Assembly (NCBI GenBank): GCA_049999805.1
Contig: JBNGIO010006113.1
Coordinates: forward strand, 62,001-86,522
Length of the DNA stretch: 24,522 bases
Origin: Folioceros fuciformis
Lineage: Eukaryota
Direction of reading: 5' to 3'
The translations under genes and the position numbers were made by a program. The notes beneath the pieces were generated by a model. It made no database searches. It saw only the letters and a program-made list of their open reading frames with translations, and was not told the origin of the DNA. Positions 4,937 through 24,522 of the stretch are shown here, in pieces (the first letter of the stretch is position 1; each line of letters begins with the position of its first letter).

Positions 4937-6478
4937 TCAACCCCACACACAGATGACACCACTCTTATCTGCTGTAGCCAGAGGCTTTCCCACGCCACTC
5001 CATGCACACGAGAGCACAGAGCTCTTGTGTTCCTTGAGAGCCCTGTCACACACAGCAGCTTTGTCCTTCCACAGATACACAGTCCCGTCTGCCGATCCAG
5101 CCACCACGTGCTTCTCATCAGGACTCATGCATGAACGTGACCAGTTGGACGCAACCTGGAATCCCGGACTTCTAAACGAGGCGCGGACTGCAAAGGTCCG
5201 GACATCGAACACATTGTTGATGTTGTCCCTGCCTGTAGTCAAGAGACTTCGCCCGCTCCTTGACAGGGAAACCGAGGATATCCCGTTGTTGTTGTGAGCA
5301 ACAACTTCATTTGCCAGCTTCCCTGTTCGGGCATCCCAGAAACGAAGGTTACCGTCAACGTGCCCTGAGCAGAAAATGTTTCCCTCCATCGTCACACACA
5401 AGGAATTACAATTACTGTGGCACATGAGTGTAGTGATACCATAGCCCTTGTTCAGATCCCACGTTTTGATAGTTCTGTCGTGGGCAGCACTGACAGCTCG
5501 CGAGTGGCTGGTCTTGCTGAAATCCACAGTCACCACTTTGTCAGCGTGCCCTGTCAACGTGTGCCTGATCCGCCCAGTCTGCAAATCCCAAAGGAAAAGC
5601 TTGTGGTCACTGCAGGCAGCCAGAAGATGCCTGTTGTCCGTGGACATGGAGAGAGCAAGCACGGAGCCAAGGCAGCCTCGCAGAGTATTCAAAGCGACCC
5701 CAGAGCCAGCATCCCATAACTTGATCAGTCTATCGAATCCGCCACTGAACAGCGTGGAGCTGCTGTGCTCATACAGCAGGACAGTGCAGCTGCCATCATG
5801 CGCATTTGCGAAGGTATGGCGAACCTTGGTGGGACTGGCTCCCGGCTCCACATAACTGTCTGCCCCGAACTCGGAATTCCGCACAATTCCATCAACCTGC
5901 TGCCTTGCCAGCTCCTCCAGCTTTCCTGCCTTCTGCTCCCGGATCATCTCCAAGTATATCTCGTTGGCCTCGTTCATCCTGTCCGATTCCCGCAACTTCA
6001 AAGCCATCCACCGATCCACCAGCGACTTGTTGTCCGCCATGACCCGCTTCAGCTCCGCTTCCTGCTCCTGCAACCGCTTCTGCAGCGCCTGCCGCTCCTC
6101 CTCCCCCAGTTCCACCGCCTTCCTCGTCTCATCTAGCGCTTCCCTCAAGTCCGCCAGGCTGGCTCGAGCCTCCGACGCCTCCTTCTCCCGCTCCTCCGCC
6201 CGAGCCTCCTCCTTGGCCAATTGGGCCTTCAGGGCAGCCACAGACTGCACCTCCTGCACCAGCTGCTCGGATGCCTGCGCGTTGGCCCGGTAGAGCTGGA
6301 TCACCTCCTGCTGCAGGCTCTCCACCTTGCTCTCCAATTCTGCTCCCCTTGAATTGAAGCCCGCCAGCAGCGCAGTGAGCGCCGGGGCATGGGCTCCTTC
6401 TTCCACCTCGTGCCGCCTCCTCAGGGACCTGCAGGCCTCCAAGATCGCCTTGAACGCCCTCTCCTCCATGGTGCGCAT
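4937..6478 (-). CDS. ATG16: Autophagy-related protein 16 (N-terminal helix, coiled coil, WD40 propeller); single exon
   Basis: LRRRHEVEEGAHAPAL and DNKSLVDRWMALKLRESDRMNEANEIY match plant ATG16, followed by WD40 repeats (GGFDRLIKLWD, GHADKV, HDRTIKTWD, GHVDGNLRFWD). First ATGs are at 6478 (MRTMEE) and 6469; the ORF-track start at 6511 is not ATG. Confidence 0.93.
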   Translation of the reverse strand: MRTMEERAFKAILEACRSLRRRHEVEEGAHAPALTALLAGFNSRGAELESKVESLQQEVIQLYRANAQASEQLVQEVQSVAALKAQLAKEEARAEEREKEASEARASLADLREALDETRKAVELGEEERQALQKRLQEQEAELKRVMADNKSLVDRWMALKLRESDRMNEANEIYLEMIREQKAGKLEELARQQVDGIVRNSEFGADSYVEPGASPTKVRHTFANAHDGSCTVLLYEHSSSTLFSGGFDRLIKLWDAGSGVALNTLRGCLGSVLALSMSTDNRHLLAACSDHKLFLWDLQTGRIRHTLTGHADKVVTVDFSKTSHSRAVSAAHDRTIKTWDLNKGYGITTLMCHSNCNSLCVTMEGNIFCSGHVDGNLRFWDARTGKLANEVVAHNNNGISSVSLSRSGRSLLTTGRDNINNVFDVRTFAVRASFRSPGFQVASNWSRSCMSPDEKHVVAGSADGTVYLWKDKAAVCDRALKEHKSSVLSCAWSGVGKPLATADKSGVICVWG

Positions 6479-6681
6479 CCCGCCTCTGTGAGGCACTACA
6501 GGACCACGCAATCCACAGGGACAGGGACAACCCTAGCTTCAGATCGGAGTCCGACACTTCCCCTTTCCAGAAAATTAGAGGGTGGGAACGGATTCTTCAC
6601 CGATGCTGTTAGCCAGGAGCAGGAACAGGAGCACTTGCAGCAACTTCCCCTTTGTGGAGCCTATCTGGTGGTGGGACAAAT

Positions 6682-7315: not shown

Positions 7316-7623
7316 GCCCCTTTCCCGAAGCTGGGTGGAGCTGCTTCCCATGCTGAGGGCTAAGACAGCAGCATCTGCCTAATACAAGGCAACCAAACGT
7401 CTTGCGATTGGCTTATGCCCTCAAGCTGCATGCCTGCACACAGAGCTAGAGCTTCTGCCCCGGGGCCCCCGCCGTGTAATCAGGTAAGCCCATGCCAGTA
7501 CGCTTCTTGTGGGCAACTGTCAAACACCCTGCGAGCCTCATTCAAGCCTCCACACTTGAGGGCACGGTTCACCAGGCTACTCATGAGACATGTGTCCGTC
7601 TTGACCACACTAGCTTGAATGTG
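7316..7623 (-). pseudogene. Degraded PLS-class PPR fragment (about L-S-P-L)
   Basis: Across frameshifts it reads HIQASVVKTDTCLMSSLVNRALKCGGLNEARRVFDS / AEALALCAGMQLEG / ANRKTFGCL..GKQLH / LRERG. This is collinear with DIQASAVKPDIFVGNSLVCMYAKCGSLGDARKVFDS...REALALYAGMQHDG..ANRVTFICL...GKQLH..IRERG at 13561-13884. Confidence 0.85.
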
Positions 7624-7749
7624 TCTCGATGACCCTCCTTGCTCACGCAAGATGCTGTGCAGAGGCACAATTCTTTCGTGTCTCGGTCTCCTTTGCCGGT
7701 GATAAGTCTGATTTAAGCTCTTCCTTTTTCACTCTGAACGTAACCTTTG

Positions 7750-10230
7750 TCAACTCTGCTTCACACCGGAGAATCGATGCTTTTCATCCCCAACGAGAAA
7801 TGTATGCACTAGTCCGTCATCGTCTGTCCACCAGCTCTGACCCAGCTCTTTCCATGCCCTGATCCCTACTCTCCTGGCCTGCATCTCGAGTGCTTGCATC
7901 CACATCTGGGCTCCTGTGTAGATGTTTGCCATCAGCACATACGCAGCCGCATCTTTTGGGTCTAGCTTCACTGCTTCGTCGAAAGCATGGCGGCCCACCT
8001 CCACGTTGCTCCACTTCCGACAAGCACCAAGAAGGGTGTGCCAAACTCCAGACTTAGGAAGTGCGGGCATCGACTTCACTAAACTAAGTGCTTCATCCAG
8101 GTGTCCTGCACGAGCCAGCAGATCGACCATGCATGCATGATGCTCCTCCGAAGGGTGGATGCCATACTTTCTGCCCATTGCCTCAAAGCACTCTCGCCCC
8201 TTGTTCACTAGACCCACATGGCTGCATACTGTTAATACACTAAGAATTGTGACGCTGTTTGGCTGGATGCCATCCTCTCCCATTCTGTGGACCAGGTCAA
8301 AGACTAAGTCACTGTTTCCTTGGCAGGTGTAACCTGCAATCAATGCATTCCACACGACAATGTCTCGTTCGTGCAACGAATCAAATACCTGCTTGGCATC
8401 GACCATACTCCCAGCCTTCCCATACATGTTTATCAAACTGCCGGCTACAAACACATCACCTTGCAGCCCTTGTTCTACAATCTCTGCATGTAGGTGCCTT
8501 CCCAGTTGCAAGGCTGCTACATTCGCACATGCCTGCAAGAGGCACACAAATGTCACCGAATTTGGTGAACCCATGCCTCCTTCTTGCATCGCATAGAATA
8601 GCCGAAAGGCTTCCTGAACCATACCCTGCTGAGAATACCCTGCTATCAAAGCATTCCAGGCTACCACATTCTTGTTTCCAAGCCCATCAAACACTCTCTG
8701 TGCATCTTCCAAGCTGCCACATTTTGCATACATGTTCACCAAGCTGCTACCTACAAACACATCTGTTTGATATCCTAATTCTCTAGTTTGGGCATGAAGG
8801 TCTTTGCCCTGCTCCAAAGCTGGGCTGCCCACACTTGTGCATGCCTGCAGGAGGCATGCAAATGTCACTGAATCCGGTACAGCAATGCCTTCCTCTCGCA
8901 TAGCTCTGTACAGACGAAGAGCTTCTTGGCCCATTCCTTTTTGGGAATACCCGGCAATGAGAGCAGTCCACGTCACTACCTCTTTAGCACTGAGCCTGTC
9001 AAACACGGCCTGAGCATCTTCCAGGCTGTCACACTTTGCATACATGTTCACCAAACTGCTGGCTACAAAGACGTCGCCCTCAAGTCCGCGTTTTCTAACT
9101 TGTCTGTGAAGCTGTTTCCCTTCCTCTAAAGCTGAGGCGCCAAGGCTTGCACATGCCTGCAGGAGGCACGCAAATGTCACACAACTGGGTACAGCGACGC
9201 CCTCCTCTCGCATCGCATCGTAAAGATGGAGGGCTTCCTGCCCCTTGCCCTGTTGGGAATAGCCTGCTATGAGGGCATTCCACATCACCACATCCTTTTC
9301 ACCAAGGCCGTCGAACACTCTCCGAGCATCCTCCAAGCTGCTACACTTTGAGTACATGTTGACCAAACCGGTGCACACAAACAAACCAGGCTTCACGCCA
9401 GTGGCCAGCACATCTGCATGAACTTGCTGCCCGGTGTTCAAGTCCGATCCCCTTGCACAAGCCTGAAGAACTGCCACAAAGACATGGTCATCTGGCTTCA
9501 CCCCTGACCTGCGCATGTCGTGATAGAGTTGTATGGCCTCTGTTTCTTGTCCATGCTCAACATGCGCAGAGATGATGGCAGACCACGTGAAGGCATCTGG
9601 CTTGGCAACCATTCCAAACACATCCTTCGCTTCTTGCAACTGGCCATGAGAAGCATACATCCGCAGGATGTGGAAGCCCAGGAACGTGTCGGACTGATAC
9701 CCCGTGCTCACCGTGTAAGCATGTATGCGGCGACCCAGAACAATACTGTTCTTGACCACACATTTCTTCAGGACAGTGTAAAGCAGAGACTTGGAAATGC
9801 GACACTCTGTTTGAACCAGAACCCCCAAAGCCTCCACAGCCTGAGCGAGACGGCCCTCATCACATAGCTTGCTCACGGTTTCAGCCGTTACGGCCCCATC
9901 GATACATGCGGGCCTGCTGCCAGGGTCGGGATCAATCCTCATAGCCCTGCCCACATCCATCCCCTTGCCCATATCCACACCCATAACCAGAGCAGCAGGC
10001 TGCGGATGTGCACATGCTGTTCTCTTGAAGGACTTGTTCAACCAGAGGACCTCCTGGGGCTGCCTGTCCTGGAGGCCAGGGCAACAACATGATGGATGTG
10101 GAAATGAGTGCTCTCTAGCAAAACAGAAGAGTTCCTGACGATGACGAATCTCGCTCGAACATCCTTTAGGACAGGCTGTCATTCCTGCACAGGTAATGCA
10201 GCTCCCGACTTGGTGGTCCAACACAGCCAT
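7750..10230 (-). CDS. PLS-class PPR protein with E1/E2 and a WW-type PG box, DYW deaminase domain missing (E+-like); organellar RNA-editing specificity factor
   Basis: About 17 L/S/P motifs ending P2-L2-S2, then E1 (VWHTLLGACRKWSNVEVG), E2 (AAAYVLMANIY) and KELGQSWWTDDDGLVHTFLVGD followed by a stop. First ATG at 10230. A TTTGCAG acceptor near 10294 suggests an upstream exon, so the start is uncertain. Confidence 0.9.
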   Translation of the reverse strand: MAVLDHQVGSCITCAGMTACPKGCSSEIRHRQELFCFAREHSFPHPSCCCPGLQDRQPQEVLWLNKSFKRTACAHPQPAALVMGVDMGKGMDVGRAMRIDPDPGSRPACIDGAVTAETVSKLCDEGRLAQAVEALGVLVQTECRISKSLLYTVLKKCVVKNSIVLGRRIHAYTVSTGYQSDTFLGFHILRMYASHGQLQEAKDVFGMVAKPDAFTWSAIISAHVEHGQETEAIQLYHDMRRSGVKPDDHVFVAVLQACARGSDLNTGQQVHADVLATGVKPGLFVCTGLVNMYSKCSSLEDARRVFDGLGEKDVVMWNALIAGYSQQGKGQEALHLYDAMREEGVAVPSCVTFACLLQACASLGASALEEGKQLHRQVRKRGLEGDVFVASSLVNMYAKCDSLEDAQAVFDRLSAKEVVTWTALIAGYSQKGMGQEALRLYRAMREEGIAVPDSVTFACLLQACTSVGSPALEQGKDLHAQTRELGYQTDVFVGSSLVNMYAKCGSLEDAQRVFDGLGNKNVVAWNALIAGYSQQGMVQEAFRLFYAMQEGGMGSPNSVTFVCLLQACANVAALQLGRHLHAEIVEQGLQGDVFVAGSLINMYGKAGSMVDAKQVFDSLHERDIVVWNALIAGYTCQGNSDLVFDLVHRMGEDGIQPNSVTILSVLTVCSHVGLVNKGRECFEAMGRKYGIHPSEEHHACMVDLLARAGHLDEALSLVKSMPALPKSGVWHTLLGACRKWSNVEVGRHAFDEAVKLDPKDAAAYVLMANIYTGAQMWMQALEMQARRVGIRAWKELGQSWWTDDDGLVHTFLVGDEKHRFSGVKQS

Positions 10231-10436
10231 TGGCTGAGGAGGAGACCGTCCCTCGCAGTGGCAGGCAGCGGCAGGGCAGGGCAAGGCCAGGCCCTGCAAA
10301 CAATCCAGAAAAACCTAAAGCTTTTGTACGTTATTGTTGGCGTGATGTGGACTAAATTGGATTCAGTTTGTGTAGTGATCGAAGTTGCGAATGCGGTTGC
10401 GGTTGCAGATCGAGCATTTTCCAGAATTCGGGCGGG

Positions 10437-11733
10437 ATGCAGGGCGCGACTAGCAGGCGTGAGCAGCCGTCCGGCGGTCTGCTCGGCCAGGTGCAGGTGA
10501 AGCTGAGGGAAATTGATGTGGGAGTGAAGACATGGCTTCGGCAGCAACCAGCCCCTGTAGAGGTCGTACTGGTCACAGCCTCCAGCGCCCTGCAGGGCGG
10601 AGCTATTGGTGCACTCATGGGCACCTTCACGGCTGACATGGCCGCCACGCTGCCGACCCCTCCTCCGGGAATGAGCCCCCAGACAGCTGCTTCTCTACAG
10701 CAGGCTAAGGTTGGCCTCCTCGTCGCTGCAAGCAGTCAAGATAGAATCATAGGTTAATCTCCCTGGCTTGATTCTTGCTTGCAGGCGCTCTCGGGTGGAC
10801 CATTTCATCAAGCTCGAAATTTCGCTGTCATGACGGGTGTAAACGCTGGCCTCACATGTGCCCTCAAGCGAATGAAGGGTGGAACAGAAGATGCCCAGAC
10901 CAGGTGAGAGGGCTTCAAAGGATGCATGTGGCGGAGGTTTAAGGGGGGTTTTGCCCTCTCTGTCCTTGTGTTGCTTCTGCTACTCCCTTCACCAAATGAT
11001 TTCGGGCTGCCAGTATGCTAGCGGCGTTCGGATCCGGAGCAGTGTTTTCAGTCGTGAGCGGAATGGGAGGTCCCAATTTGGCAAGCAATGCAGTCACTAC
11101 TGGGATTTTCTTCGCTCTTGTACAGGGTGGCTTGTTTAAGGTGACCGATGAATTCTGCAGCTTGTACTGTACACATTCTAGTCCTTCACGTCAGTTGCTA
11201 CGGCTCCTGTGATTTGGGGCTGTTCACTAATTGGATCGCAACTGGCCGTGTGAGCTCAACAGCTCGGTCAAACGTTCTCCCAGCCGTCATCAGAAGACAA
11301 GTTCTATTCCCAGACGAGGAGCATGCTCAACAGTCTTGGTCTTCAAAAATATGAGAGGAATTTCAGAAAGGGCCTCCTTTCTGATAAGACTCTTCCGCTG
11401 CTACACGATAGGTACAAAATGTCTCCCTCGGCATTCCTTGCTTGCATGCCGTCCTTTTGATCATTTTTCTTGATTGTTCACTCATGCTGGTGGGTTGGAT
11501 TGCGGGCAGTGCCCTTGCTGAGGTCAGAGTTCCTCCAGGTGCAAGGTTGCTAATTCTTGACTACATAGAGAGGTAATAAGCTGTTTTCTATCGAGAAGCT
11601 GCTCCTTACCTCCCGGTGTCACTTGTGTTAGGAGGTAATCGGATATATATCCTTGGAACTCATAAGATGGGGGCTGACTTCACTGTCTGCCTACGTGGGA
11701 TGCAGAAACCACGAGGTTATTAAGAGGTCGTGA
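10437..11733 (+). CDS. TRIC1: Tim17/Tim22-family (PRAT) protein with C-terminal SAM domain, TRIC/HP30-like organellar tRNA/protein import component. Exons 10437-10709, 10785-10903, 11014-11140, 11263-11411, 11510-11572, 11706-11733
   Basis: Five GT-AG introns join in phase to give KTWLRQQPAPVEV..QGGAIGALMGT..QQAKALSGGPFHQARNFAVMTGVNAGL..AAFGSG..QGGLFKLGQTFSQP..LGLQKYERNFRKGLLSDKTLPLLHDSALAEVRVPPGARLLILDYIERNHEVIKRS*. This is collinear with Arabidopsis HP30/TRIC as I recall it; TRIC1 and TRIC2 cannot be distinguished. Confidence 0.92.
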
Positions 11734-12669: not shown

Positions 12670-15210
12670 ATGACCACCAGGCTAGATCTGTCACAGCTGC
12701 CGCGGAATGGCAGTTGCGTGGCCCGCCACCTCCGGCCTGGTGGTGGGTCGGAGCAATGCGGGACGACACGACGGTCAGCTTCATGCACAGGGAAGGGCGC
12801 CGGCACCACGGAAGTTCTCACCCAGAAGCAGCGGAAGGAGCTCCTGTGGCAGGAATTCTTTCTGGATCCATCTGACTGGTTGGACAACAGGGCTGATAAG
12901 AAGAGTCCCCGCGATCCCGACTTCAGGCATAAGAGCTTCAGGAAGGAGCCCCTATGGCTCAGCAGCTCGCACAAGCCTGCTTGGGTGGATGCCCAGTTAG
13001 CTCGGTGGGATCTTCAGATGAGGGGGCTCGGGCCCGGGCCAGGCCTTGGGAGTCATGATGATGGTGATGCACAGAATGGGCTTGTTCGGATTTTGAGCAA
13101 ACGTTGTGAGGAGGCAGAGCTGCTGAGCGAGGCTGTGGAAGCATTGGATCTCCTCGTGGAGCAGAAATGTCCCATCAGCAAAGCTCTCCTGCATCGTGTT
13201 CTCACCAGGTGCATAGCTCAAAAGGATTTTGTTTGCGGTGGCCGCGTCTATTCCATTTCTGTGCAAGCTGGTCACGGCTCCAATGCTTTTTTGGCTAACC
13301 AGTTCATTGGGATGTATGCTTGTCATGGCAAGCTGGAGGATGCGCGACAGGTGTTCACCCACGTTAGTAGGCCAGACGTCCACATGTGGTCATCCATCAT
13401 TTTGGCCCACGCCCGGCATGGAGAGCCCGCTCAGGCCATCAGTCTGTACCGACAGATGAGGGATGCAGCGGTTGTGGAACCAGATAACCACTTGTTCGTG
13501 GCGGTTCTCAAGGCTTGTGCGTCTGCGGAGGACTTGGTTTGTGGCAAGCAGGTGCATGCTGATATTCAGGCAAGTGCTGTGAAGCCCGATATCTTTGTTG
13601 GCAACAGCTTGGTGTGCATGTACGCCAAGTGCGGGAGCTTGGGTGATGCTCGCAAAGTGTTTGACAGTTTGCCCAAAAGAGATGTAGTGACATGGACCAC
13701 CATGATTGCAGGATACAGTCAGCATGGGCTGGGGCGAGAAGCCCTGGCTCTGTACGCAGGTATGCAACATGACGGCACTACTCCAGCCAATCGTGTGACG
13801 TTCATTTGCCTTCTCCAGGCATGTGCAAGCGTCGGGGCCCTGGAGGAAGGGAAGCAACTACATTCGCTAATTCGGGAAAGAGGCCTCGCATCTGATGTGC
13901 AAATTGGTAACTGCCTGGTGGACATGTATGCTAGATGTGGTAGCTTGAAGGATGCTCGCAGAGTGTTCGACGGTTTGAGCAGCAAAGATGTGGTGACGTG
14001 GAGTGCCATGCTTGCTGGATATAGTCAGCAGGGACTCGGGCGAGAAGCCCTTGCTCTGTATGGGAGTATGCAAAGCGAGGACATCACTCCAGGCGATCAT
14101 GTCGTATTTGTGAGCCTTCTTCAAGCCTGCGCCTCTGTGGGAGCGTTGCAGCAAGGGAAGGAGCTTCATACACTGGTCCGTGCCCAACAGCTTGAAGATA
14201 ACATGGTGGTGGGAAACTGCCTGGTGGACTTGTACGCGAAATGTGGGAGTTTGGAAGATGCCCGCAAAGTGTTCGACGGACTGTCCAGGAGAGATACAGT
14301 GACATGGACGGCTATGCTCAACGGATATGCTCAACACGGTGACGGTCACATGGCAATTGGCTGTTTCGAACGGATGGTGGAAGAAGGTGTACTGCCAGAC
14401 GCAGCAACTTTCACCAGCCTTCTGGTGGCCTGCAGCCATGCAGGACTGGTGGATGAGGGCCAAAGGTATTTCAGAAGGATGGTGGAGGAGCATGGTATCG
14501 TGCCCACCGATGTTCACTACAGCTGCATAGTTGATCTTCTGGGCCGATCAGGCAAACTGGAGGAGGCTGAAAATATGCTGAGAAGTACATGGTTTGGCCA
14601 TGAGGTGGTGGGCTGGACAGCCCTGCTAAGCGCGTGCAAAAGCCATGGCGATGTGGAGCGTGGAAGGCGCTGTTTTGAGCATCTCGTGGGGTTGGACGCG
14701 GATGATGCCAGCCCGTATGTGCTGCTGGGGAACCTGTATGCGAGTGCAGGCAGGTGGGACGACGTGGACAAGATAGAAAGTATGAGGAAGGCAGCAGGTG
14801 CTGTGAAGAAAGCTGCCAAAGCCTGCATCGAAGTGAAGAAGGAGGTGCACGAGTTCACTGTCGGGGAAGAGAGGTCTGACATTTCTTCAACGCTGCTGAG
14901 GAGCGTGAACAGGAGTCTGAGGGAGGGAGGCCATGTGCCACAAACAGAGCTGGTGTTGAAGGCGGTGTCTGAGGAGGAGAAGCAGGATTCCTTGTGCGGT
15001 CATGCGGAGAAACTGGCCCTGGCGTATGGTCTGCTCAACACACCAGATGGCTCGACTTTGGTGGTGACCAAGAACCTGCGCATGTGCGATGACTGCCACA
15101 GCAGCACGAAGGTGATGTCGCATCTCGAGAAGCGAGAGATCATCGTGAGGGATGCGCATAGAGTGCATCGATTCATGGACGGCTCTTGTTCTTGTGGGGA
15201 TCGGCATTGA
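12670..15210 (+). CDS. PLS-E-DYW PPR protein, DYW:KP (DRH-type) candidate U-to-C RNA editing factor, with N-terminal OSB-type PDF motif
   Basis: 846-aa intact ORF: R/S/T-rich leader, PDF motif, 14 PLS motifs, E1/E2, then KAAKACIEV..VHEFTVGEE..LCGHAEKLALAYGLLNTP..KNLRMCDDCH..RDAHRVHRF.DGSCSCGDRH*. Confidence 0.95.
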   Translation: MTTRLDLSQLPRNGSCVARHLRPGGGSEQCGTTRRSASCTGKGAGTTEVLTQKQRKELLWQEFFLDPSDWLDNRADKKSPRDPDFRHKSFRKEPLWLSSSHKPAWVDAQLARWDLQMRGLGPGPGLGSHDDGDAQNGLVRILSKRCEEAELLSEAVEALDLLVEQKCPISKALLHRVLTRCIAQKDFVCGGRVYSISVQAGHGSNAFLANQFIGMYACHGKLEDARQVFTHVSRPDVHMWSSIILAHARHGEPAQAISLYRQMRDAAVVEPDNHLFVAVLKACASAEDLVCGKQVHADIQASAVKPDIFVGNSLVCMYAKCGSLGDARKVFDSLPKRDVVTWTTMIAGYSQHGLGREALALYAGMQHDGTTPANRVTFICLLQACASVGALEEGKQLHSLIRERGLASDVQIGNCLVDMYARCGSLKDARRVFDGLSSKDVVTWSAMLAGYSQQGLGREALALYGSMQSEDITPGDHVVFVSLLQACASVGALQQGKELHTLVRAQQLEDNMVVGNCLVDLYAKCGSLEDARKVFDGLSRRDTVTWTAMLNGYAQHGDGHMAIGCFERMVEEGVLPDAATFTSLLVACSHAGLVDEGQRYFRRMVEEHGIVPTDVHYSCIVDLLGRSGKLEEAENMLRSTWFGHEVVGWTALLSACKSHGDVERGRRCFEHLVGLDADDASPYVLLGNLYASAGRWDDVDKIESMRKAAGAVKKAAKACIEVKKEVHEFTVGEERSDISSTLLRSVNRSLREGGHVPQTELVLKAVSEEEKQDSLCGHAEKLALAYGLLNTPDGSTLVVTKNLRMCDDCHSSTKVMSHLEKREIIVRDAHRVHRFMDGSCSCGDRH
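12841..12999 (+). other. OSB-type PDF motif (ssDNA-binding module) within the PPR protein
   Basis: LLWQEFFLDPSDWLDNRADKKSPRDPDFRHKSFRKEPLWLSSSHKPAWVDAQL matches the W..FF..P..WWDNR..K..P..PDFKHK....LW....P.WV pattern of OSB-family PDF motifs. Confidence 0.85.
14806..15210 (+). other. DYW:KP-class deaminase-fold domain ending in DRH
   Basis: KPAxA-like box (here KAAKA), HAE at 15001-15009, CDDC at 15085-15096 with HxE(x25)CxxC spacing, terminal CSCGDRH. Confidence 0.9.
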
Positions 15211-15645: not shown

Positions 15646-18600
15646 GTGGCAGGGCCATGGCAATACACGGGTTCTTCGTCGACAGCCTGAAGATAAAAGA
15701 GCCAGGAGTAATCCACGTCTGGAGAGCTGATGGTGAGCCGCCCATGTTTGGATGCTGTCGGCGAGCCCTTGAAGGAGATAGGAATCTTGGTGGCCTTTTT
15801 GGGAGTCATCTTTTCTCCTTTCCCAACCGTGAATGCAGGGTTGTCCACGGTGTACACGTATTGCACCGGTTTCAAGAACACATTGGAGAAATTGGCTTGA
15901 CCTTTACCCTTGATGACGAGAATAGGACCTTGGGGACTGGGTGGCGTGCAAGTTCCAAATAAGTTGCACTTGTAGGTGCCCGCTGTCGGTGAAGATATGG
16001 TCAGCTGGCCTTGCAGTTTGGTGACCACATCGTGAGGTTCGAATTTCACCAACATCTGCTTGTAGCATGTTGTTTTCAGTTTCTAGTTGTTAGCGAGTGT
16101 GTGCACCTTGTCACCTCATACAGTAAGTACATTGTTACAGTGGGCTTTAAAGGATGGCATGCAAGTCACGAAAAGCGAGCTGTAGAAGGGTAGAGGTAGG
16201 ACAGCGAGGAGGAGGAGACATAATGTTACCTGCACAGGAACACCTAGTTCCGAGGTTGCCGCATCTGCGTTCACTTTGGAATCCACGGAAAAGCCTCCGT
16301 CCAGTCCAGCTTGGTTGATCTCACAGGTGTAGGTGGTCTTGTCGTGGAAGTAGTGCGTGAAGAAACAGGGTTTGGCCTGCTGACTGCCCAAAGGCACTAC
16401 AAAACTGAGGGGAAGCTCGAAGGCAGGGGCCAGACCCACGAGCTTGAGGCTGTACAGATAGTCTCCGAGGAGAGGGTTGGAGAGGGTTAGAGTGGTGTCG
16501 TAACTGGTTTCCAAGATGGGACGATAAGACACTTCCACAGGGAGAGAGGCTTTGGGCAGCAGGTCCAGGGTGGGAGGCACAGTGATGTCCTCGTGCTCGC
16601 AGGTACACTCTAGTGTGATGGGGACATCCAGCGGATTGGTGAATTTGAAGCTCTTGGTCTGCTTTTGCCTCACCAGACAGCGGAAGAGCAGCTCCTGGAC
16701 AAGATCTGGCTCGCTGGCCTCAAAGGTAATATTGTAGAAGATGTACTCCCCGGAGGCCTGGTTGGTGAAGGTAACTATTGCAGCGGTGAGCCCAGGCTTC
16801 TGGGCGTAAAAGTGGAGCACGCAGTCCCTGGAAGAGTTTCCCGGCACATCGATGAGCGTAGGGCCCTTGAGAGTGTCGTACAACGGCTGCTGCTGGTCGG
16901 GAGATCCCTTAGTTCGACCTTTGGTAGGCTCAGCTGCTGCTTTGGGCTTCTTCACTTTGTCCTTGTCAGCAGCAGCCTTCTTCTTCTCCTTGTCTTTCTC
17001 CTTGTCGGCAGGGGCCTTCTTCTTCTCCTTCTCCTTATCAGCAGCTGTAGGGGACTTGCTCCTACCATCCTTCTTATCCGTTCCAGCCCCAGCAGCAGGC
17101 TTGGAGAGCTGCACAGAGACGGTGAACTGCTGTGGGACCTTGAGCCAGTTGAGCACCTGCAAGTGCACGGGGTGATCACACCGTGCCTTCACATCGTACT
17201 TGACGTCCCCAGCCGACAGGGGCGGCTGCGTATCTCCCACCAGATCATAGAAGAGCGCAGAGCCATCCGGGAGAGGGAAGAAGACGGATCCCTGGTGCTT
17301 CACCAGCACGCTGGTCGGAGCAGCGGCAGCAGCAGCCTTCCCCTTCTTGGAAGCAGGGTCCCCGGCAGGGGTGACAGGAGCAGCAGGGGGAGACGTGATG
17401 ATGGTCGGGCACATGTGCATTGGCGTGTATGTGACGTTGTAGCCCACAACCTGCCCCGCCTTGACAGCCACATGGGTCGCGCCCTTCCAGTACTGGTTCC
17501 GGATCCTGGGAAGCAGGAGCCAGTCCTCCTTCATCTCGTTCTTGAGCTGGATGGTGATGGTGTGCGAGCTCCGCACTGGGGCCGTGAAGGCCAGCAGGGC
17601 CTCAGCCGGGGCGTGCTCCACGCACCTCCCCGTGAGCGTTAGGTACTGGGTATCCCCGCACTCCACCTGGCATGGTATGTTCTCCACGCTCACATCCGGG
17701 TTCACCTTGGAAGGGTGGAACGTAATGTCCACCACCGCCACCTGCTGCGGCGCCAGAAACCCGTCCTCGGGGAAGATGGTGAAGTCTTCAGCCAGCTCAG
17801 GGGAGACGGCGAAGTGGAAGTTGGTGCCCATATCTCCCGTGTTGTGGATACTGAGCTTCTTGGACTGGCGGGAACCCAACACCACCTCGCCGAAGGGGAG
17901 GTTGTTGCTGCTCAGACTGAGCTGAGTCCCGACGCAGGCCCCGGACACCCACAGCACCGTCCATTTGGTGCCGGACACGTCCAACTCCAAACCCTCGGTG
18001 AAGGCCGAGATCCGGCAGTGCGGCCGGAAATGCAGCTCCGCCACGCCGGACAAGCGCGGCCGGATGTCCAGCCCCTCCGCCGGCAGGGCCTCCACGTCGA
18101 ACTGTGCCAGGGCCGCGCGGCTGGGCTGGAAGCTGACATGCATCTGGGCTCGGCTACGGTTCACCAGCTTCACAGCGATCTTGGCAGTCTGCCCCAGCTT
18201 GAGCGGCTTGAAGGCCAGGCACTTCTGCTTGGGGTCTAGGAGCTCCAGGTGCACGGGGACTCCCTCCCCAGCCACCGCGATGTTCACCGTGTCCAAGCTG
18301 TTGATCTTGAAGGGCACGGTGGCCTTAAAGGGGCCCAGCATCCGCGGCCGGAAGATGATGCGCATGGTGGCCACCTGTCCCGGTGCCATGTGCAGCCGCC
18401 TGGTTCTCGTCTCCACCTCCACTTCCGGCACCGTGTTGTCGTACTGCAGCTCCACCACTGTGTCGTAGGATGCCTTGTTCTCGATCTCCAGGACTGTGGC
18501 AGCGGGCTCCAGTCCGGACACGTACGGGAAGGTTGGCCCGAAATCGTAAGACAGGAAGCTGAAATGCACCTTGGGCCTGTACACGGTGCCCGCCAGCACC

Positions 18601-21600
18601 AGCCTGCGGCAGCCATGGCCACCACACAACGGAATTGTGAGAGGACGAGCAAAGCTGAAGATGAACGAATCCGGGCAGCAGGAAATGGTGGACGACAGAA
18701 AGGCAACTTGGGGGGACTTGGGTTAGCCTACGACTTGTCTTAGGAATGATGCATAGGGTTTCAACACGGAGGTGAAGAATGCAGCCTAGGGTATCAACGT
18801 TTTAGTAGAGGAACGACGGTTAAGGAGGAAAAAAAGCAAGAAGAGGAAAGCAAACGAGGGATCACTTACTTGTAGGTGGGACCATGGTGGATTGAGAAGG
18901 AGACGGGGACGGCGAGCTCGGCGCAGGGGCTGGTCGGGCAGAGCGAGAGGAGGCAAGTGACCTGCTCGCCGCCAACACCCACGGCCGAGGCCACAGGATC
19001 CACGGACAGCTGAGCGTCGGGAGTGTCGGGGAGGTGCCAGTGGAACTCGTATGGCCTGGTGCCGGCGTTGGCGAAGGTGAGAGTGTTCACCACGGTGTCG
19101 TTGATGAGCACCTGGCCGTAGTGCACAGTGTTGGTGTCGGTGGCAGTGAGGAGGATGGGGGGAAGGCCGTCGGCGGACGCCTCCATGTACACCCGCTCGT
19201 GGATGGCGTAGGCGTCCCCCTTGATGTTGACGCTGAGCAAGGAGCCCGCGATGATATTGCAGAGGACGTTAAAGTTGTGCGGGCCCTCGGAGACGGGGGC
19301 GAACACCACCTCCAGTGGCAGCGTCGACAGCTCCCGCACGATGCCCTTGTCGGGGGTGAAGCGCAGGATGGTGGAGCTGTAGGTGGATCTGTCGAACTGG
19401 AAGGAGTACGGCACCTGCTCCGCGTTGAGCAGGTTGAGGAGCCGGCGGTCCTTCTTCCCCACCTGCACCAGGCCGAAGTTGACGCAGGCCTGGCCCAGGC
19501 TCACGTCCGGCTTCTTCACCCGCCCTACCAGCAGAAATTGCACCGAGATGTCCAGCTCCAGGATGTTGAAGCTCCAGAAGCTCTCGTGCAGGTCGAGCTG
19601 CGTCGGGACGAACTCGAAGCGCATCTCGTAACGCGCTCCTGGTCCCATCTCCCCGCCGATGGTGAGGCAGCGGAAGGGGTCCTTGCAGCAGCCGCTGGCC
19701 TTGTCGCAGCACCGCTGCTCGGCCGACACTGGCGGCACCGGCTTGGGCTTCTTGTTGGCCTGCCACATGAACTCGTATGCCCTGTTGGTCGGGTTGATGG
19801 CGATGAAGCTCAGCTTGTTCCGCACCTGCGTTCCAATGGACGTGACCTCGATTATGTGCGTGCCCAGGTCCAGCGGGCCCGGCTGCCCGTCCGGCCCTGG
19901 CAGCGCCGGGTCCCTGCGCAGCGCCGTGATGTAGTCGCTTCGCGCCAGCTCGAAGTGGCACCAGGGCCTAGTAACCTTCCCCGTCACCTTCACCTTCAGG
20001 GGCTCCATCTCCTCGTGGAGGTGCTCGATCTCGCACGTCAGAACTCGGCTGCAATCTTCAATCTCCCGGGGCGCGAATCGCACCCTCATGTTCATTTCCT
20101 CCCCGCAAGCAATCTGTCCCGTAGCGGGAACCACCGTGTACTGTCCCCTCCTGTCCACAACTCCGTCCATGTTCTCCACCTGCACATAGACGCATACGTG
20201 AAACTGATGCACCACATCAAAGTCACCCTAAAACCCTAAACCCCTGAACCCTCGTGAAACAAAGATCATCCAAACCCAGGTTGCACTTGACCATCTATCT
20301 CGTGGCAACCATTGCATCACAATAGAAGGTTTGTCACAATGTCACAAACCAGCACCTGCCACGCGAAGGACATGCAAGCCTTGCTCAAATTCTTCACGTG
20401 GAAGGTTATGCTTCTCGTTTGAAACATCATGGTAGTCCGAAAGCATAGTTCCTTAGTAGTGCAGGCGTATCGAATATTATCGGCCACTGCATTCACTCTC
20501 AGTGTCAACTGCTTATTGCTACCCTTCACCACCTCATGTGGCGGTTCCGCTGCATACACAACCTCTTCTTCTTCCTTCCCCTCCTCTTCTTTCTTCGAGT
20601 CTCCTTTTTTATCACCTAAGCCCTTAATACCCTTCCCTTCCACTTGCAATTCTGATTCTTCCTCTGATCCTTTCTTTGCTTTCCCTCCCTTGCCTTGCTT
20701 CTTGTCCCCTTTGGATGATGCACCGTCATCTAGTGATGCCCCCTTTTCTCCCTTCTTACTTTTAGAAGAAGCATCTTTATTTTGCTTGTTATCCTTACTC
20801 TTCTCATCGTCTCCAGTGGAAGCTTGCTTCCCCTTCTTGCCACCAGCTGCTCCTCCCTCCTTTTTGCTACCTTTCAGTTCTTCAGGCTTTGACAATCTGT
20901 CATCCCAATCGATCACCTCGCATCCCTCTTGCACCTTGTAAACAATATTGCTCAATTCCATCTTTATCTCCTTATTCTTGTACTCAACTGTGGATGTCGG
21001 ATGGAAAGTGACAATCATGCTCTTGGAAGTTCCAGCTCTCAGATGACCTACAGTGGGGATGAACTTTATGAAGGGAATGGAAGGGCAAACAAATTTCCAA
21101 TCCTTATCAATCATATTGTTTTGAAGGGTGAAGGTGGTGGATCGAGCCAAGCCAACAGGACCATCAGCAAAGTGTATTTCTTCATCGTTGTTATCGTTAT
21201 TGGGTAGACCCAAACACATGACATCCGGATTATATCCTTCTCCAGTGATCAAGATTGTGGAGCTATCAAAAGGGTTCTCATCAATCATCAACCTGATTTC
21301 TTGCGTGTATTTTGCCACACTATTTGCTGCTACATAAATCATGATAATCTTTCTTTCATTTATTGCGACATTGAACTTTTTCTTCACCTTTAGAGGAACA
21401 AATGTGCCATTCAAATCAAAAGTCATTTGGATCCATGGAATGGGTGCAGCCATAGCAATCCAAGCCACCACAGGAACCAAACCATTATTGTGCAACATTA
21501 TTGGGAGACACCTTGATCTACCCACAGGGATGTGTGGGAACTTAAGCCAAACTAGGCCTTCGGGGCTAAATAGTGAAGGGACCTCGATCTTGACATGAGG

Positions 21601-24522
21601 TAAAGTTCCCTCTCCTTTCAAGCCACATCGAAATTGTTTATTGGGTGTATCTCCAGCACCTACTACATTTGCCTCAAAATGAGCACAGTACTTTTGCATT
21701 GATAAAGGTCTAAAACAAAGGCACACATATCGATATTCATGAGATGGGATATAAACATGCGCTGGTTGAACTTCCATGCAAAATGGCTCTTGAGTAGACC
21801 CAACCAAATCTACTTCTGAGTTGCACGAAATAATCGAAAAGTTTACTGTACATGGGACCTTAAAGGGATTATCAATGCGAAAATTGGCTTTCACTGCTTT
21901 AGGTGTCTTGCATGGAGCATTGGGTTCATTTCCTATTGATCTCTCGAAACCCAATACCACAGCTCCGAAAGAAAAGACCTCATCCTGCTTCGAGAATGTT
22001 CCATATGGTTGAGTCGGACCTGGAAGCTCAAAATTGTCAACAACTCTATGCTCTTCAAATATCACTTCCGGCTCCACACTTAATCCGGGCCAACACGAAT
22101 TTGCAGAGATCTCATAGTAGTGTCCATCAGGATGGGTGAATGGATTTTCATCTTCGATCTCAATTCTAATCTTCTCCACAACATTACAAGGAAGGGATGA
22201 TAAGAAAACAATAGAAACATCTTTCGAAGTCCCCGGATGCACGATTCCTTGAGCTGAATTTATAGTCAAAGTCCTCATTTGTAAGATCTCTATGGGCAAC
22301 TCCTTACTGCTCCCCTTGTCACCCTTTTTTCCGTCTTTACCTCCTCCCTTATCTGAAGCATCCGACTTCTCCTTTTGTTTCTTAGTATTATCTTCCTTGC
22401 CTTTCTTCTTTCCTGCTTTCAGAGAGCCTGACTCCTCGTCTTCATTGCCTTTCTTCTTCCCTACTTTTGGAGAGCCCGACTCCTCATCTTCCTTGCCTTT
22501 CTTCTTCCCTGCTTTTCGAGAACCTAATTCCTCAACATCTTTCTTGTCCTTCTTTCCTTCTTTACTAGCTCCTCGTTCTTTCTCGTGCAATGCCTCTACA
22601 TTTTTCTCGTCTACGTTTTGCATCTTATTCTTCTTATCCTTCTTATCGCCTTTGCCTGAGTCGATTTTTAAAAGCCTTCAATTTATTAGCATGTTGCATT
22701 CATTGAATATTACAAAGAGAAACCTAGAATGTTAGAAATAGGAGGTTTCTATAATCTAGAAACATACCTGGTACACCCATATCCTCATCCTCAACAAGAG
22801 GTTGCTCTATCACAAAAGGTATTGCTCCATCTATCATATGGTATTTGAATGGGAAAAAGCCATTGTTCACTATTTTCAAGATCCTGGGCTCTGAAGGGAT
22901 CAAACAAGTCTGGTATCCAAAATGAATTCCGTGATTCGGCAACAAAGCATATTTGGAGTAAACAGTTTCCAAGTCTATGTAAATAGCTACAGATTGTTCT
23001 GCTTTGCCTCGGAATGGGTCTATTATATCTAGTCTCACGTCCTCATTATGTCTTAGGCATACTTCTCTTTCTATCTTCTTCTCCTTATTAAAGTGAACAT
23101 TCACCTAAAGGTTGTAAAAGTTAGACATCTAATACCCCCCTTGTCTCCAAAGCTTACATAATGGGTTGCAAAACATTGAATACTAGACTTACAGTGGCAG
23201 ATCCCTTGGGCTTCAACTCTCCTTCCATTGTAGAGATGATGAAGAGCTCTTTTATAAGATGGGTTGTCATAACAAACAAGAAACTTATCGCATATTTGCC
23301 TTTGTTTTCCAAGACAATGGGTTTTGAAGAATCCTCTCCAACCTTTAAGGTTCCATAATTAAGTCCTACCATAGGGGCTTGTTCTCCTTTGTTTGTAGGC
23401 CACTTGAGATTGAAGTCTATCTTATATGCCTCCGCATTTATTACCACAGGTAATTCTTGCATCACATTAGAAGGCTCCTTGCTGTCACTCACCTAGAAAC
23501 TTAACCAAGTAAGTACAAATAATATTCTCCTGTCATTTGGTAAAATATAGGCATTTCAAGTAACTTTGATTTCTTTCCAAAATTAGGGTGTTGTTAACAA
23601 AGCTCTTAGCATGCCATACCTGCAACAGTAATTTTTGATTGAACATTTTCTCCTCTATGGAGGTAAAAATCATGCTTATCAATGTACTACATTCTGGATC
23701 AAGAAGGCCATTTGTTTCGGAAAAGCAAAACTCTCTAGGAAGGCTCTCAAGTCCAGCAAATCTCCACATGACTTTTAAGGCTGACACATTTCTGTAACGC
23801 AATATTCAAGTTCAAAATCAATATAATTTATTTTGACTCTCACTTCACTTTAAAGTAACAATAATATGTACAACTTAATGAAACAAATATTGATCTTTTA
23901 TATATTTACATATATCTTGTAAAATGCACCAATAAATTGTACTGCATACTAACGTTATATTAATTTGTTTTCTAGCTGAATATCCAACAAGTAAGCGCTC
24001 GAATGTGATGACATTTGGGTCCAACTCCACATGTGGAAAGTCGGCAAGGCATACCACCTTGATCTCAATCGGATTTGGATTATCTTTCACTTTGAAAATT
24101 AATTTTCCCTCGCGTTGTCCTAAGTGATCCTGGATTATGTGTTCATCAATATAAGAAAATTAGTCAACAACATAAACAAAAGTGTTAGTATAATAATACT
24201 CATATAGAAAGCAAACTTTCACAACTAAGTTTTTTAGGTTTAGGGTTTTGTCTGTTGAGCATGGGGAAAATTCTTACCTTACTAGGGTAGCCAAATACTC
24301 GTAGCACTTGACTCTCATTTACTTTAAGTTTCATTGCAATGGGATGGATTAAGAAAAATGCATCAGATTTTGATCTCATCTTGCCGCCACCTTCGAGGCT
24401 ACCTTGTTTTCCTTCCAAGAAAAAAAAAGTTAGAAAAAAATAATAAAAAATAATACATAAATTAAATTATAATAGGCTCATAGTTAATAGTATATACCTT
24501 TCGTATTTGGGACTCCTGCAAC
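15513..24522 (-). CDS. HYDIN: HYDIN (axonemal central-pair protein), 3' part. Exons 5'->3': <24522-24498, 24411-24278, 24129-23954, 23791-23620, 23492-23193, 23104-22768, 22655-20356, 20179-18870, 18603-16230, 16055-15513
   Basis: Tandem ASH/Ig-like domains with HYDIN-typical segments: VKDNPNP, ITFERLLVG, FRTTMMFQTR, RPWCHFELARSDYITALRR, FIAINPTNRAYEFMW, FSFLSYDFGPTF, HNTGDMGTNFHF, HQGSVFFPLPDGSALFY, NWLKVPQQF, FTNQASGEYIFY, PQGPILV, SWLFYLQA. All nine GT-AG introns join in phase. The gene continues past the window edge. Confidence 0.92.
20226..20252 (+). repeat. Short degenerate plant telomere-like repeat (CCCTAAA)n / telo-box in a HYDIN intron
   Basis: CCCTAAA-A-CCCTAAA-C-CCCTGAA-CCCT, containing AAACCCTAA at 20231-20239. 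Confidence 0.65.
22391..22533 (-). repeat. Three-copy 48-bp coding tandem repeat in HYDIN
   Basis: Units at 22391-22438, 22439-22486 and 22487-22533 encode EE(L/S)GS(R/P/L)K(A/V)GKKKG(K/N)ED three times. Confidence 0.9.

What the first reader, a model, noticed from the sequence alone, without database searches (positions are those of the whole stretch)
12841..15210. OSB-type ssDNA-binding PDF motif fused to a candidate U-to-C RNA-editing enzyme (PDF-PLS-E-DYW:KP)
Seen: between the leader and the PPR array lies LWQEFFLDPSDWLDNRADKKSPRDPDFRHK..KEPLWL...PAWV, joined by a flexible GLGPGPGLGS linker within one intact ORF. The neighbouring WW-type PPR has no such motif. Known: PDF motifs are the ssDNA-binding modules of plant organellar OSB proteins involved in recombination surveillance, and DYW:KP domains are linked to U-to-C editing. 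Inference: the editor could be tethered to nucleoid ssDNA or R-loops for co-transcriptional editing, use PDF as an accessory RNA-binding or oligomerisation module, or act on ssDNA. I know of no functional description of this architecture but cannot confirm novelty without a search.
Basis: partly seen in the sequence, partly recalled or inferred. Interest (0 to 1): 0.85.

Follow-up and report, generated by a model that had tools for sequence, protein, structure and literature searches.

The report
OSB-type PDF motif on PPR editor
A plant nuclear gene for an organelle RNA-editing protein carries, ahead of its RNA-reading repeats, a small module otherwise known from organelle single-stranded-DNA-binding proteins; the combination is real, recurs widely in mosses, liverworts, lycophytes and ferns, and seems not to have been described.

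Summary
Window 12670..15210 (+) is one intact 846-aa ORF: a disordered leader, one PDF motif (residues 51-117), a Gly/Pro linker, about 15 PPR motifs, E1, E2 and a DYW domain. The motif matches named OSB1-4 proteins (562 hits at E<=1e-3). It is the only PDF hit in the window (E 1.3e-30).

The DYW domain is of the KP kind. It has HAE, a KAAKAC box where its nearest relatives have KPAKAC, a DRH tail, a deletion of about three residues where moss domains have (S)HP, and Lys at position 88.

The implied special link between PDF and U-to-C editing is not supported. Among 119 related PLS proteins, 19 carry an N-terminal PDF: 9 of 59 HSE (PG-like), 2 of 19 HAE (KP-like) and 8 of 22 without DYW. Carriers come from Sphagnum, Ceratodon, Calypogeia, Riccia, Diphasiastrum, Adiantum, Ceratopteris and Pteridium. 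None of 19 named seed-plant rows has it.

So this gene belongs to a widespread PDF-PPR architecture that I could not find described. RNA-derived contigs identical to the window cover the PDF segment. What PDF does here is untested. My best inference is an unspecific single-strand nucleic-acid grip at the 5' side of the PPR footprint.

The parts
12670..15210 (+). Whole coding sequence (846 codons plus stop), apparently without introns
   Evidence: It is the longest ORF and starts at the first ATG after a stop. RNA-derived contigs of run X1, identical to the window, cover at least 12523-13041 and 13620-15105. No joint of X1 inside the ORF is among the 15 of 320 joints shown.
12670..12813 (+). 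Leader, residues 1-48: probable organelle presequence
   Evidence: pLDDT is below 50 for residues 1-48 in the full-length model. The first 50 residues hold 6 Arg, 7 Thr, 5 Ser, 8 Gly and only 3 acidic residues. Targeting itself is inferred, not tested.
12820..13020 (+). PDF motif, residues 51-117 (folded mini-domain 51-120)
   Evidence: Profile hit with E 1.3e-30. phmmer hits named OSB proteins. AlphaFold2 gives pLDDT 88 and pTM 0.73, with the order helix, strand, strand, helix. The segment stays near pLDDT 90 in the full-length model.
13030..13065 (+). Gly/Pro-rich linker, residues 121-132
   Evidence: pLDDT is below 50 for 121-132. The related contig of run X2 has a 6-nt deletion at 13041 that keeps the frame.
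13066..14604 (+). PPR array, residues 133-645: about 15 motifs in five P-L-S triplets
   Evidence: Pfam PPR families score up to E 1.8e-66. Self-search finds P motifs with a 102-residue period at 237, 339, 441 and 543. The model has 15 helix pairs between residues 133 and 639.
14605..14805 (+). E1 and E2 motifs, residues 646-712
   Evidence: Pfam E_motif covers 659-714 (E 3.2e-13). The model has two further helix pairs at 646-675 and 681-709.
14806..15207 (+). DYW domain of the KP kind, residues 713-846
   Evidence: Pfam DYW_deaminase E 2.2e-36. HAE, CDDCH and CSC are present, and Lys falls at position 88 of a 133-residue count. The box reads KAAKAC where moss domains have EPGR[ST]W, the domain has a deletion of about three residues where the mosses have H/SHP, and the tail is DRH instead of DYW. 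The nearest relatives have the box KKKPAKAC, HAE and a DRH tail.

Best explanation
This is a nuclear gene for an organelle-directed PLS-class PPR RNA-editing factor. Its layout is leader, PDF, flexible linker, (P-L-S)x5, E1, E2, DYW:KP.

Shown here: the architecture, the homology of the N-terminal module to the PDF motif of OSB proteins, the KP-type features of the DYW domain, and transcription of the segment. It is also shown that an N-terminal PDF recurs on many PLS PPR proteins of bryophytes, lycophytes and ferns, whatever their C-terminal type.

Inferred from established knowledge of PPR proteins: the PPR array reads one organellar RNA site in parallel, with the N-terminus at the RNA 5' side. 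The DYW:KP domain then converts a U to C just 3' of the footprint.

Inferred, and the weakest step: the PDF mini-domain hangs on a disordered 12-residue tether at the 5' end of the array. There it works as an unspecific grip on single-stranded nucleic acid, most simply the RNA upstream of the PPR footprint. This would raise affinity or keep the site unfolded. It is an old accessory of PLS proteins, not an adaptation to U-to-C editing.
For: Architecture.

PDF homology: 562 phmmer hits at E<=1e-3. They include C. quinoa 'protein OSB3' at 3.2e-43. The profile search also found rows named OSB1, OSB2, OSB3 and OSB4.

Conservation: the same residues are conserved in PPR-linked and OSB motifs. D23, R25, P34 and W56 are invariant; W11, F15, P18, W21, K28, D35, F36, H38, K39, L46, W47 and P54 are at 90% or more in 56 sequences.

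Fold: the module folds confidently alone (pLDDT 88). In the whole protein it is flanked by disordered stretches.

Recurrence: 17 of the 150 listed phmmer representatives are PPR proteins (Pfam confirmed all 10 that I scanned). In the 25 PPR-labelled rows whose PDF coordinates I listed, the motif lies in the N-terminal part of the protein (within the first 300 residues). Among 119 relatives, 19 carry it.

Biochemistry of PDF: review passages say the motif is responsible, and in AtOSB1 sufficient, for ssDNA binding (PMC6963530, PMC4166229 and PMC6451138).

KP type. These were compared with passages of PMC9478123 and PMC11845758.

Expression: run X1 is identical to the window and shows exact GT..AG intron removal in neighbouring genes, so it is RNA-derived. 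It covers 12523-13041.

Selection: the related contig of run X2 is about 92% identical over 12491-13938. The two indels listed for it inside the ORF are 3 and 6 nt long; upstream of the start codon they are 1 to 6 nt long.
Against: No experiment bears on PDF in a PPR protein. AtOSB1 and AtOSB2 are reported to prefer ssDNA to dsDNA or RNA (passage of PMC4166229), which favours a DNA partner over RNA. The predicted fold has no solved analogue (best Foldseek E 6.9, TM <=0.24), and no PDB sequence matches. Structure therefore gives no hint of a binding surface, and the conserved aromatic residues may simply be the core of a very small domain. Some close paralogues have let the motif decay (P0281 and P0274 score only 12.9 and 12.6 bits), and P0251 has lost the W-V pair. 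The module is therefore dispensable for at least some family members. U-to-C activity has been shown for synthetic consensus KP proteins, not for this protein. Its box reads K-A where relatives have K-P.
Confidence: 0.55

Rival explanations
1. PDF keeps its OSB job of binding single-stranded DNA. It tethers the PPR protein to the organelle nucleoid (displaced strands, R-loops, replication or recombination intermediates), so that RNA is met as it is transcribed.
For: Review passages say PDF is the ssDNA-binding part of OSBs and that OSB1 and OSB2 prefer ssDNA over RNA. The conserved residues are the same in OSB and PPR-linked motifs. The disordered linker would allow a tether.
Against: PPR proteins already bind single-stranded RNA with high affinity, so a second contact to the same RNA strand is the simpler reading. 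A single PDF copy is the rule in PPR proteins: 22 of 25 PPR-labelled rows have one copy, while the non-PPR rows have up to 11 copies. Nothing here addresses localisation.
Confidence: 0.2
2. PDF is a protein-protein contact module. It would mediate self-association, or docking to OSB or other PDF-bearing proteins or to an editosome partner.
For: AtOSB2 is reported to be a tetramer (passage of PMC6963530). PDF copies are often arrayed in tandem in OSB-like proteins, with up to 13 matched stretches in P0004 (11 passed my domain cut).
Against: No result here supports it. The reviews attribute DNA binding, not oligomerisation, to the motif.
Confidence: 0.1
3. The motif is an inherited relic with no present function in this gene, or it lies in the part removed on import.
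For: The motif has decayed in some close relatives (P0281, P0274) and is partly eroded in P0251. About five sixths of the related PLS proteins do without it (100 of 119).
Against: All ten positions invariant in 18 PPR-linked motifs are intact in the window. The module folds with pLDDT near 90. The related contig of run X2 keeps the frame through it. The motif starts at residue 51, after a disordered leader of 48 residues, which is a usual length for a presequence (inference).
Confidence: 0.1

Closest known systems
[quoted passage not shown]
   Same: They share the roughly 50-60-residue PDF motif with the same conserved W, F, D-x-R, K, P-D-F-[KR]-H-K, L-W and P-x-W-V positions. Identity to named OSB proteins is 34-47% over most of the 76-residue query.
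   Different: The window protein has no OB-fold or SSB-like domain (Pfam PF00436 was not found). Its single PDF copy lies at the N-terminus, not the C-terminus, and the rest of the protein is a PPR-E-DYW editing factor.
PPR-DYW:KP proteins of hornworts, lycophytes and ferns, and the synthetic KP1-KP7 editors built from their consensus (PMC9478123, PMC11845758)
   Same: It has a PLS array, E1, E2 and a DYW domain with HAE, an altered PG box, a non-DYW tail, the shorter form without (S)HP, and Lys88.
   Different: It carries an extra N-terminal PDF module that is not mentioned in the passages I read. Its box reads KAAKAC, where the nearest relatives have KPAKAC.
PDF-PPR proteins of other non-seed plants, annotated only as hypothetical or PPR proteins
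   Same: They show the same order: leader, 1-3 PDF copies, then the PPR array. Examples are Diphasiastrum P0126, P0100 and P0175; Ceratopteris P0119 and P0090; Adiantum P0077, P0106 and P0189; Sphagnum P0075, P0188 and P0266; Ceratodon P0191 and P0198; Calypogeia P0258 and P0273; and Riccia P0145.
   Different: Most end in a PG-like DYW domain or have no DYW domain. Only P0251 and P0238 (unnamed contigs) share the HAE/KP-like end.
PPR proteins fused to other nucleic-acid modules (RRM-PPR fusions listed in PMC13386178)
   Same: The principle is the same: a PPR array plus a second, unspecific RNA- or DNA-binding module (passages).
   Different: The module is a different one. That survey's main text has no occurrence of 'OSB' or 'PDF'.

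Membership tests
OSB family | One or more PDF motifs | tested here: met
   The profile hit has E 1.3e-30. phmmer and the profile search hit rows named OSB1-4.
OSB family | Central OB-fold / SSB-like domain ahead of the PDF motifs (as described in PMC4166229 and PMC6963530) | tested here: not met
   The Pfam scan of the whole protein finds only PPR/TPR-type families, E_motif, DYW and a weak Clathrin match. It finds no SSB family, and nothing in residues 1-157. The full-length model has no beta-barrel ahead of the array. The protein is therefore not an OSB; it only shares the module.
PLS-class PPR-E-DYW editing factor | Tandem P, L and S PPR motifs | tested here: met
   Pfam PPR E 1.8e-66 with 10 stretches. 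The repeats have a 102-residue triplet period. The model has 15 helix pairs.
PLS-class PPR-E-DYW editing factor | E motifs followed by a DYW deaminase domain with HxE and CxxCH | tested here: met
   E_motif 3.2e-13 and DYW_deaminase 2.2e-36. HAE lies at domain position 66, CDDCH at 94 and CSC at 128.
DYW:KP subtype | PG box replaced | tested here: met
   The window has KKAAKACIEV where moss domains have K[KE]EPGR[ST]WIEV. The six nearest relatives read K(K/R)(P/S)AKAC. The eponymous Pro is Ala in the window. The name 'KPAxA' for this box is recalled, not taken from a call (no paper holds the word).
DYW:KP subtype | Ala in HxE (HAE), where PG types have HSE | tested here: met
   HAE is present. 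The paper passage says this Ala is highly conserved in KP proteins.
DYW:KP subtype | C-terminal triplet other than DYW, and the shorter (132-133 residue) domain lacking xHP | tested here: met
   The tail is DRH, and the domain has a deletion of about three residues where the moss domains have H/SHP. Counted from the box, the domain is 133-134 residues long. The criteria come from passages.
DYW:KP subtype | Lys88 in the active centre | tested here: met
   The Lys of TKNLRMC falls at position 88 of a 133-residue count. The paper notes that this Lys is also conserved in PG types, so it does not discriminate.
DYW:KP subtype | U-to-C editing activity | not testable with these tools
   It has been shown only for synthetic consensus proteins (PMC9478123 and PMC11845758; abstracts and passages).
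DYW:KP subtype | Occurrence restricted to hornworts, lycophytes and ferns | not tested
   The organism of the window is not given, and I did not try to name it. The nearest DYW relatives are unnamed contigs.

The most novel reading that the evidence does not exclude
N-terminal PDF modules define a large, so far unnamed subfamily of PLS editing factors in bryophytes, lycophytes and ferns. The module would be a built-in helper that grips the single-stranded substrate. It would be absent from seed-plant PPR proteins, which use separate helper proteins (MORF proteins; in PMC13386178 their tree is drawn from angiosperms and gymnosperms). PDF would then be a second, RNA-directed career of a motif so far known only as an organelle ssDNA binder. 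It could also be a part worth adding to synthetic PPR editors.
Probability: 0.15. Interest if true: 0.7.

Novelty: new variant of a known kind. Interest (0 to 1): 0.5.

Why it matters
PPR-DYW editors are being built into programmable RNA base editors, and the KP kind is the only known route to U-to-C changes. Natural accessory modules that change affinity or access are therefore of practical interest. For evolution, the finding links two organelle nucleic-acid systems, OSB-type ssDNA binders and PPR RNA binders, through a shared module. The module sits on roughly one in six of the related PLS proteins sampled from non-seed plants (19 of 119) and on none of the 19 named seed-plant proteins in the same sample. 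For OSB biology, it shows that the PDF motif is a free-standing, portable mini-domain and not an appendage of the OB fold.

Tried and rejected
- Word-index protein search with the 76-residue fragment ('longer' lengths): 15 candidates, none scored. This reflects the limits of the index, because the exhaustive search found 562.
- Own genome: none is held, so I could not count how many PPR genes of this organism carry PDF.
- Earlier findings of the scan: nothing by place, sequence or words.
- Self-association of the PDF fragment (complex prediction, two copies): no verdict, score 0.20 against a mark of 0.32, and the alignment was not used. This is evidence neither way.
- AU test of whether all PPR-linked PDF motifs form one clade: not finished after two runs of 288 s. 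Single against multiple fusion events stays open.
- RNA runs: no listed holder is on record as RNA. I inferred the RNA origin of X1 from spliced contigs. Contigs cannot give expression level or transcript ends.
- Pfam on four exon-sized ORF pieces of the spliced gene at 10356-11460: no family.
- Literature: 'DYW KP' with 'U-to-C' gave 0 papers and 'KPAxA' gave 0. Zaegel et al. 2006 (PMC1785405), the paper that defined the motif, is not held, so I could not check whether it mentions PDF outside OSBs.
- Rejected idea, that the fusion is a gene-model or assembly artefact: it is one ORF in the window, is covered by identical RNA-derived contigs, and is repeated in independent genomes of at least eight genera.
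Full report
**1. What is there**

Window 12670..15210 (+) is a single open frame of 846 codons, starting at the first ATG after a stop (DNA). Pfam finds these families:
- PPR families (PF01535, E 1.8e-66, 10 stretches);
- E_motif at residues 659-714;
- DYW_deaminase at residues 754-844 (E 2.2e-36).

It finds nothing in residues 1-157. The finding's coordinates begin at the motif; the gene begins at 12670.

**2. Is the N-terminal segment a PDF motif?**

Yes. A word-index search found nothing. An exhaustive phmmer of residues 50-125 against 1.84 billion cluster representatives gave 562 proteins at E<=1e-3, 106 at E<=1e-10 and 12 at E<=1e-30. Many hits carry the motif several times, up to 13 matched stretches.

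Look-ups show that the hits include proteins named by their sources:
- 'protein OSB3, chloroplastic/mitochondrial-like' of Chenopodium quinoa (P0007, E 3.2e-43);
- after a profile search with 18 aligned motifs (A1): OSB1 (Prunus), OSB2 (Aristolochia, Sesamum), OSB3 (Actinidia), OSB4 (Argentina), and an Arabidopsis hybrid protein named 'Primosome PriB/single-strand DNA-binding'.

Review passages describe the PDF motif as a stretch of about 50 residues named for conserved Pro, Asp and Phe. They say it is responsible for ssDNA binding by OSBs, and in AtOSB1 sufficient for it (PMC6963530; PMC4166229; PMC6451138).

Conservation supports the match:
- In 56 aligned motifs from PPR and OSB-like proteins, D23, R25, P34 and W56 are invariant. 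W11, F15, P18, W21, K28, D35, F36, H38, K39, L46, W47 and P54 are conserved at 90% or more.
- All ten positions invariant among 18 PPR-linked motifs are intact in the window.

In the six-frame translation of the whole window the profile hits once (nt 12820-13020, E 1.3e-30). The next match has E 0.98.

**3. Is it an OSB?**

No. The defining OB-fold or SSB-like domain is absent. The protein shares only the module.

**4. The C-terminal end**

I aligned the window's DYW domain with two moss DYW domains that also belong to PDF-bearing PPR proteins (Sphagnum P0075, Ceratodon P0191). The differences are these:

| Feature | Moss domains | Window |
|---|---|---|
| Box | K[KE]EPGR[ST]WIEV | KKAAKACIEV |
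| Length | has H/SHP | deletion of about three residues |
| Catalytic triplet | HSE | HAE |
| Tail | DYW | DRH |

These are the three regions that PMC9478123 says separate DYW:KP from DYW:PG, plus the missing xHP and the conserved Ala (passages). CDDCH and CSC are intact. The Lys needed for U-to-C editing falls at position 88 of a 133-residue count (PMC11845758).

Most of them read KKKPAKAC or a close variant, nearly all have HAE, and their tails are DRH, DAH, GRP and similar. The HSE...DYW domains (apart from one KPA-box, DRP-tailed exception at 138 bits) score 131 bits or less. The window's domain is thus of the KP kind, with Ala in place of the eponymous Pro. U-to-C activity has been shown for synthetic consensus KP proteins (abstracts and passages), not for any natural protein that I read about.

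**5. Anatomy of the whole protein**

A full-length AlphaFold2 model from a 42-sequence alignment has mean pLDDT 89 and pTM 0.77. It shows:
- residues 1-48 disordered;
- residues 51-120 folded, with pLDDT about 90;
- residues 121-132 disordered;
- 17 helix pairs, which I read as 15 PPR motifs plus E1 and E2;
- an alpha/beta DYW domain.

P motifs recur every 102 residues at 237, 339, 441 and 543, which fits five P-L-S triplets.

The PDF fragment alone, with 56 sequences, gives pLDDT 88 and pTM 0.73. Its order is helix 3-16, strands 21-23 and 36-38, and helix 56-70. No solved structure resembles it by sequence or by fold.

**6. Is it expressed and in frame?**

Run X1 holds 95% of the sampled words, and the X1 contig pieces listed lie on the window without a single difference. 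Its contigs skip GT..AG introns exactly in the neighbouring genes: 10707/10783, 10899/11010 and 11138/11261. One contig also joins 16055 to 16230. The run leaves 21198-24522 uncovered. It is therefore RNA-derived.

X1 covers 12523-13041 at depth about 10 without indels, and one contig spans 13620-15105. No X1 joint inside the ORF is among the 15 of 320 joints shown, so I cannot fully exclude one.

A contig of run X2, from another organism code, is about 92% identical. It lies on 12491-13938 in one piece. The two indels listed for it inside the ORF are 3 nt (12796) and 6 nt (13041, in the linker). Upstream of the ATG the listed indels are 1 to 6 nt long. The frame through the PDF is thus kept in a relative.

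**7. How common is the architecture?**

Of the 150 listed phmmer representatives, 17 also match the window's PPR part. Pfam confirmed PPR repeats in all 10 that I scanned. One of them, Sphagnum compactum P0075, also has E, E+ and a DYW domain. In the 25 PPR-labelled rows whose PDF coordinates I listed, the motif lies in the N-terminal part of the protein, within the first 300 residues; 22 have one copy, 2 have two and 1 has three.

Named carriers:
- Diphasiastrum complanatum;
- Ceratopteris richardii;
- Adiantum capillus-veneris;
- Pteridium aquilinum;
- several Sphagnum species;
- Ceratodon purpureus;
- Calypogeia fissa;
- Riccia sorocarpa.

**8.

I searched with the whole protein (2856 proteins at E<=1e-30, best 120 listed). 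I classified 119 of them. The 120th, P0126, is PDF-positive and had already come from the PDF search, so I left it out. Nineteen carry a PDF at profile E<=1e-5:

| C-terminal type | With PDF | Total |
|---|---|---|
| HSE (PG-like) | 9 | 59 |
| HAE (KP-like) | 2 | 19 |
| HCE, HQE, HVE or unreadable | 0 | 19 |
| No DYW domain | 8 | 22 |

Further results:
- HAE against HSE gives Fisher p = 1.0.
- Named seed-plant rows (Ginkgo, Cryptomeria, Pinus, Glycine) give 0 of 19, against 19 of 100 for the rest (p = 0.04).
- Diphasiastrum rows give 8 of 14.

Caveats apply. The sample is ranked by similarity to this protein. About a tenth of the search words came from the PDF region. Some gene models are truncated.

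Two further relatives keep only a decayed remnant: P0281 at 12.9 bits and P0274 at 12.6 bits, against control scores of -0.7 or less in all but one of the internal segments; the exception scored 42.1 bits and I did not identify it.

**9. One fusion or several?**

On trees of the motif alone, the PPR label is strongly clustered:
- FastTree, 337 motifs: 11 changes against 20.6 expected, with 0 of 500 shuffles as low.
- IQ-TREE quick search, 46 PPR-linked plus 90 randomly drawn of 329 OSB-type motifs: 6 changes against 38.7 expected, with 0 of 500 shuffles as low. Here 41 of 46 PPR-linked motifs fall in one cluster that also holds 5 OSB-labelled rows. One of those rows is a 250-residue fragment with a weak PPR match.

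With about 60 columns most forks are open, and the AU test did not finish. One or a few old fusions followed by PPR gene expansion and repeated loss is the simplest reading, but it is not shown.

**10. Mechanism**

Established knowledge of PPR editing factors (recalled, not tested here) says two things. The array binds RNA in parallel, with N-terminal motifs at the 5' side. The DYW domain acts a few nucleotides 3' of the footprint.

The PDF mini-domain therefore hangs, on a 12-residue disordered tether, at the 5' end of the bound RNA. Its conserved aromatic and basic positions are shared with OSB motifs that bind single-stranded DNA.

I take it to be an unspecific grip on a single strand, most simply the RNA upstream of the footprint (confidence about 0.55 for the whole statement; the PDF step is the weak one). 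The main rival is a tether to nucleoid ssDNA, favoured by the reported preference of OSB1 and OSB2 for ssDNA over RNA. A protein-contact role and a relic are less likely. The one test of self-association gave no verdict.

**11. Novelty**

These searches of the held library found no description of the fusion:
- 'PDF motif' with 'pentatricopeptide': 1 paper, which does not mention the fusion.
- 'PDF motif' alone: 5 papers, 3 of them relevant, none on PPR.
- 'organellar single-stranded DNA' with PPR and DYW: 0 papers.
- pentatricopeptide, OSB and DYW as whole words: 1 paper, unrelated.
- A 2026 survey of 182 OSB genes in 59 species: no occurrence of 'PPR' or 'pentatricopeptide' in its main text (PMC13393729).
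- A 2026 kingdom-wide survey of editing factors and their domain fusions: no occurrence of 'OSB' or 'PDF' (PMC13386178).

The claim 'not described' is therefore limited to these searches.

The proteins themselves are already in public databases, under 'hypothetical' or 'PPR' names. I rate the finding a new variant of a known kind: real, moderately interesting, and not specific to U-to-C editing.

Noticed in passing
window 7750..10299 (-): The neighbouring PPR gene (P0001, 849 aa) has PPR repeats and an E motif. It ends about 30 residues after a GQSWW box, at ...VHTFLVGDEKHRFSGVKQS, where a DYW domain would go on. No second DYW match exists anywhere in the six frames of the window. An identical RNA-derived contig runs through the stop without a joint (6958-8436). 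It looks like a truncated DYW (E+-like) protein. It has no PDF motif.
   Followed up: partly
window 15078..15210: One RNA-derived contig of run X1 begins at 15078, inside the last 133 nt of the PPR reading frame. It continues through the minus-strand flagellar-type gene, with a 174-nt intron removed at 16056-16229. The two convergent genes seem to overlap at their 3' ends.
   Followed up: no
window 16116..18629 (-) and 20317..22623 (-): These large ORFs have HYDIN/CFAP65/ASH-type Ig-like domains and long Lys-rich stretches. This suggests a cilium or flagellum protein gene, and so an organism with motile sperm.
   Followed up: partly
window 10409..11470 (+): A well-expressed gene lies between the two PPR genes, with at least three short GT..AG introns removed in contigs of runs X1 and X17. 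Its four exon-sized pieces gave no Pfam family. By eye it resembles a Tim17/22/23-type membrane protein with a C-terminal SAM-like end, but that is recalled and unverified.
   Followed up: partly
window 4937..6511 (-): This ORF encodes an ATG16-type autophagy protein: an ATG16 coiled coil (62.4 bits, cut-off 33.7) followed by WD40 repeats. It is covered by an identical X1 contig (4760-6777).
   Followed up: partly
P0281 residues ~20-75; P0274 (relatives): Two close PLS-DYW relatives keep only a decayed PDF remnant (12.9 and 12.6 bits). This suggests repeated loss of the module within the family.
   Followed up: partly
P0004 (Kingdonia uniflora, 1160 aa), P0005, P0009, P0015, P0017: Some non-PPR proteins carry 7 to 13 tandem PDF copies. 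That is far more than the one to five copies per OSB mentioned in the passages I read.
   Followed up: no
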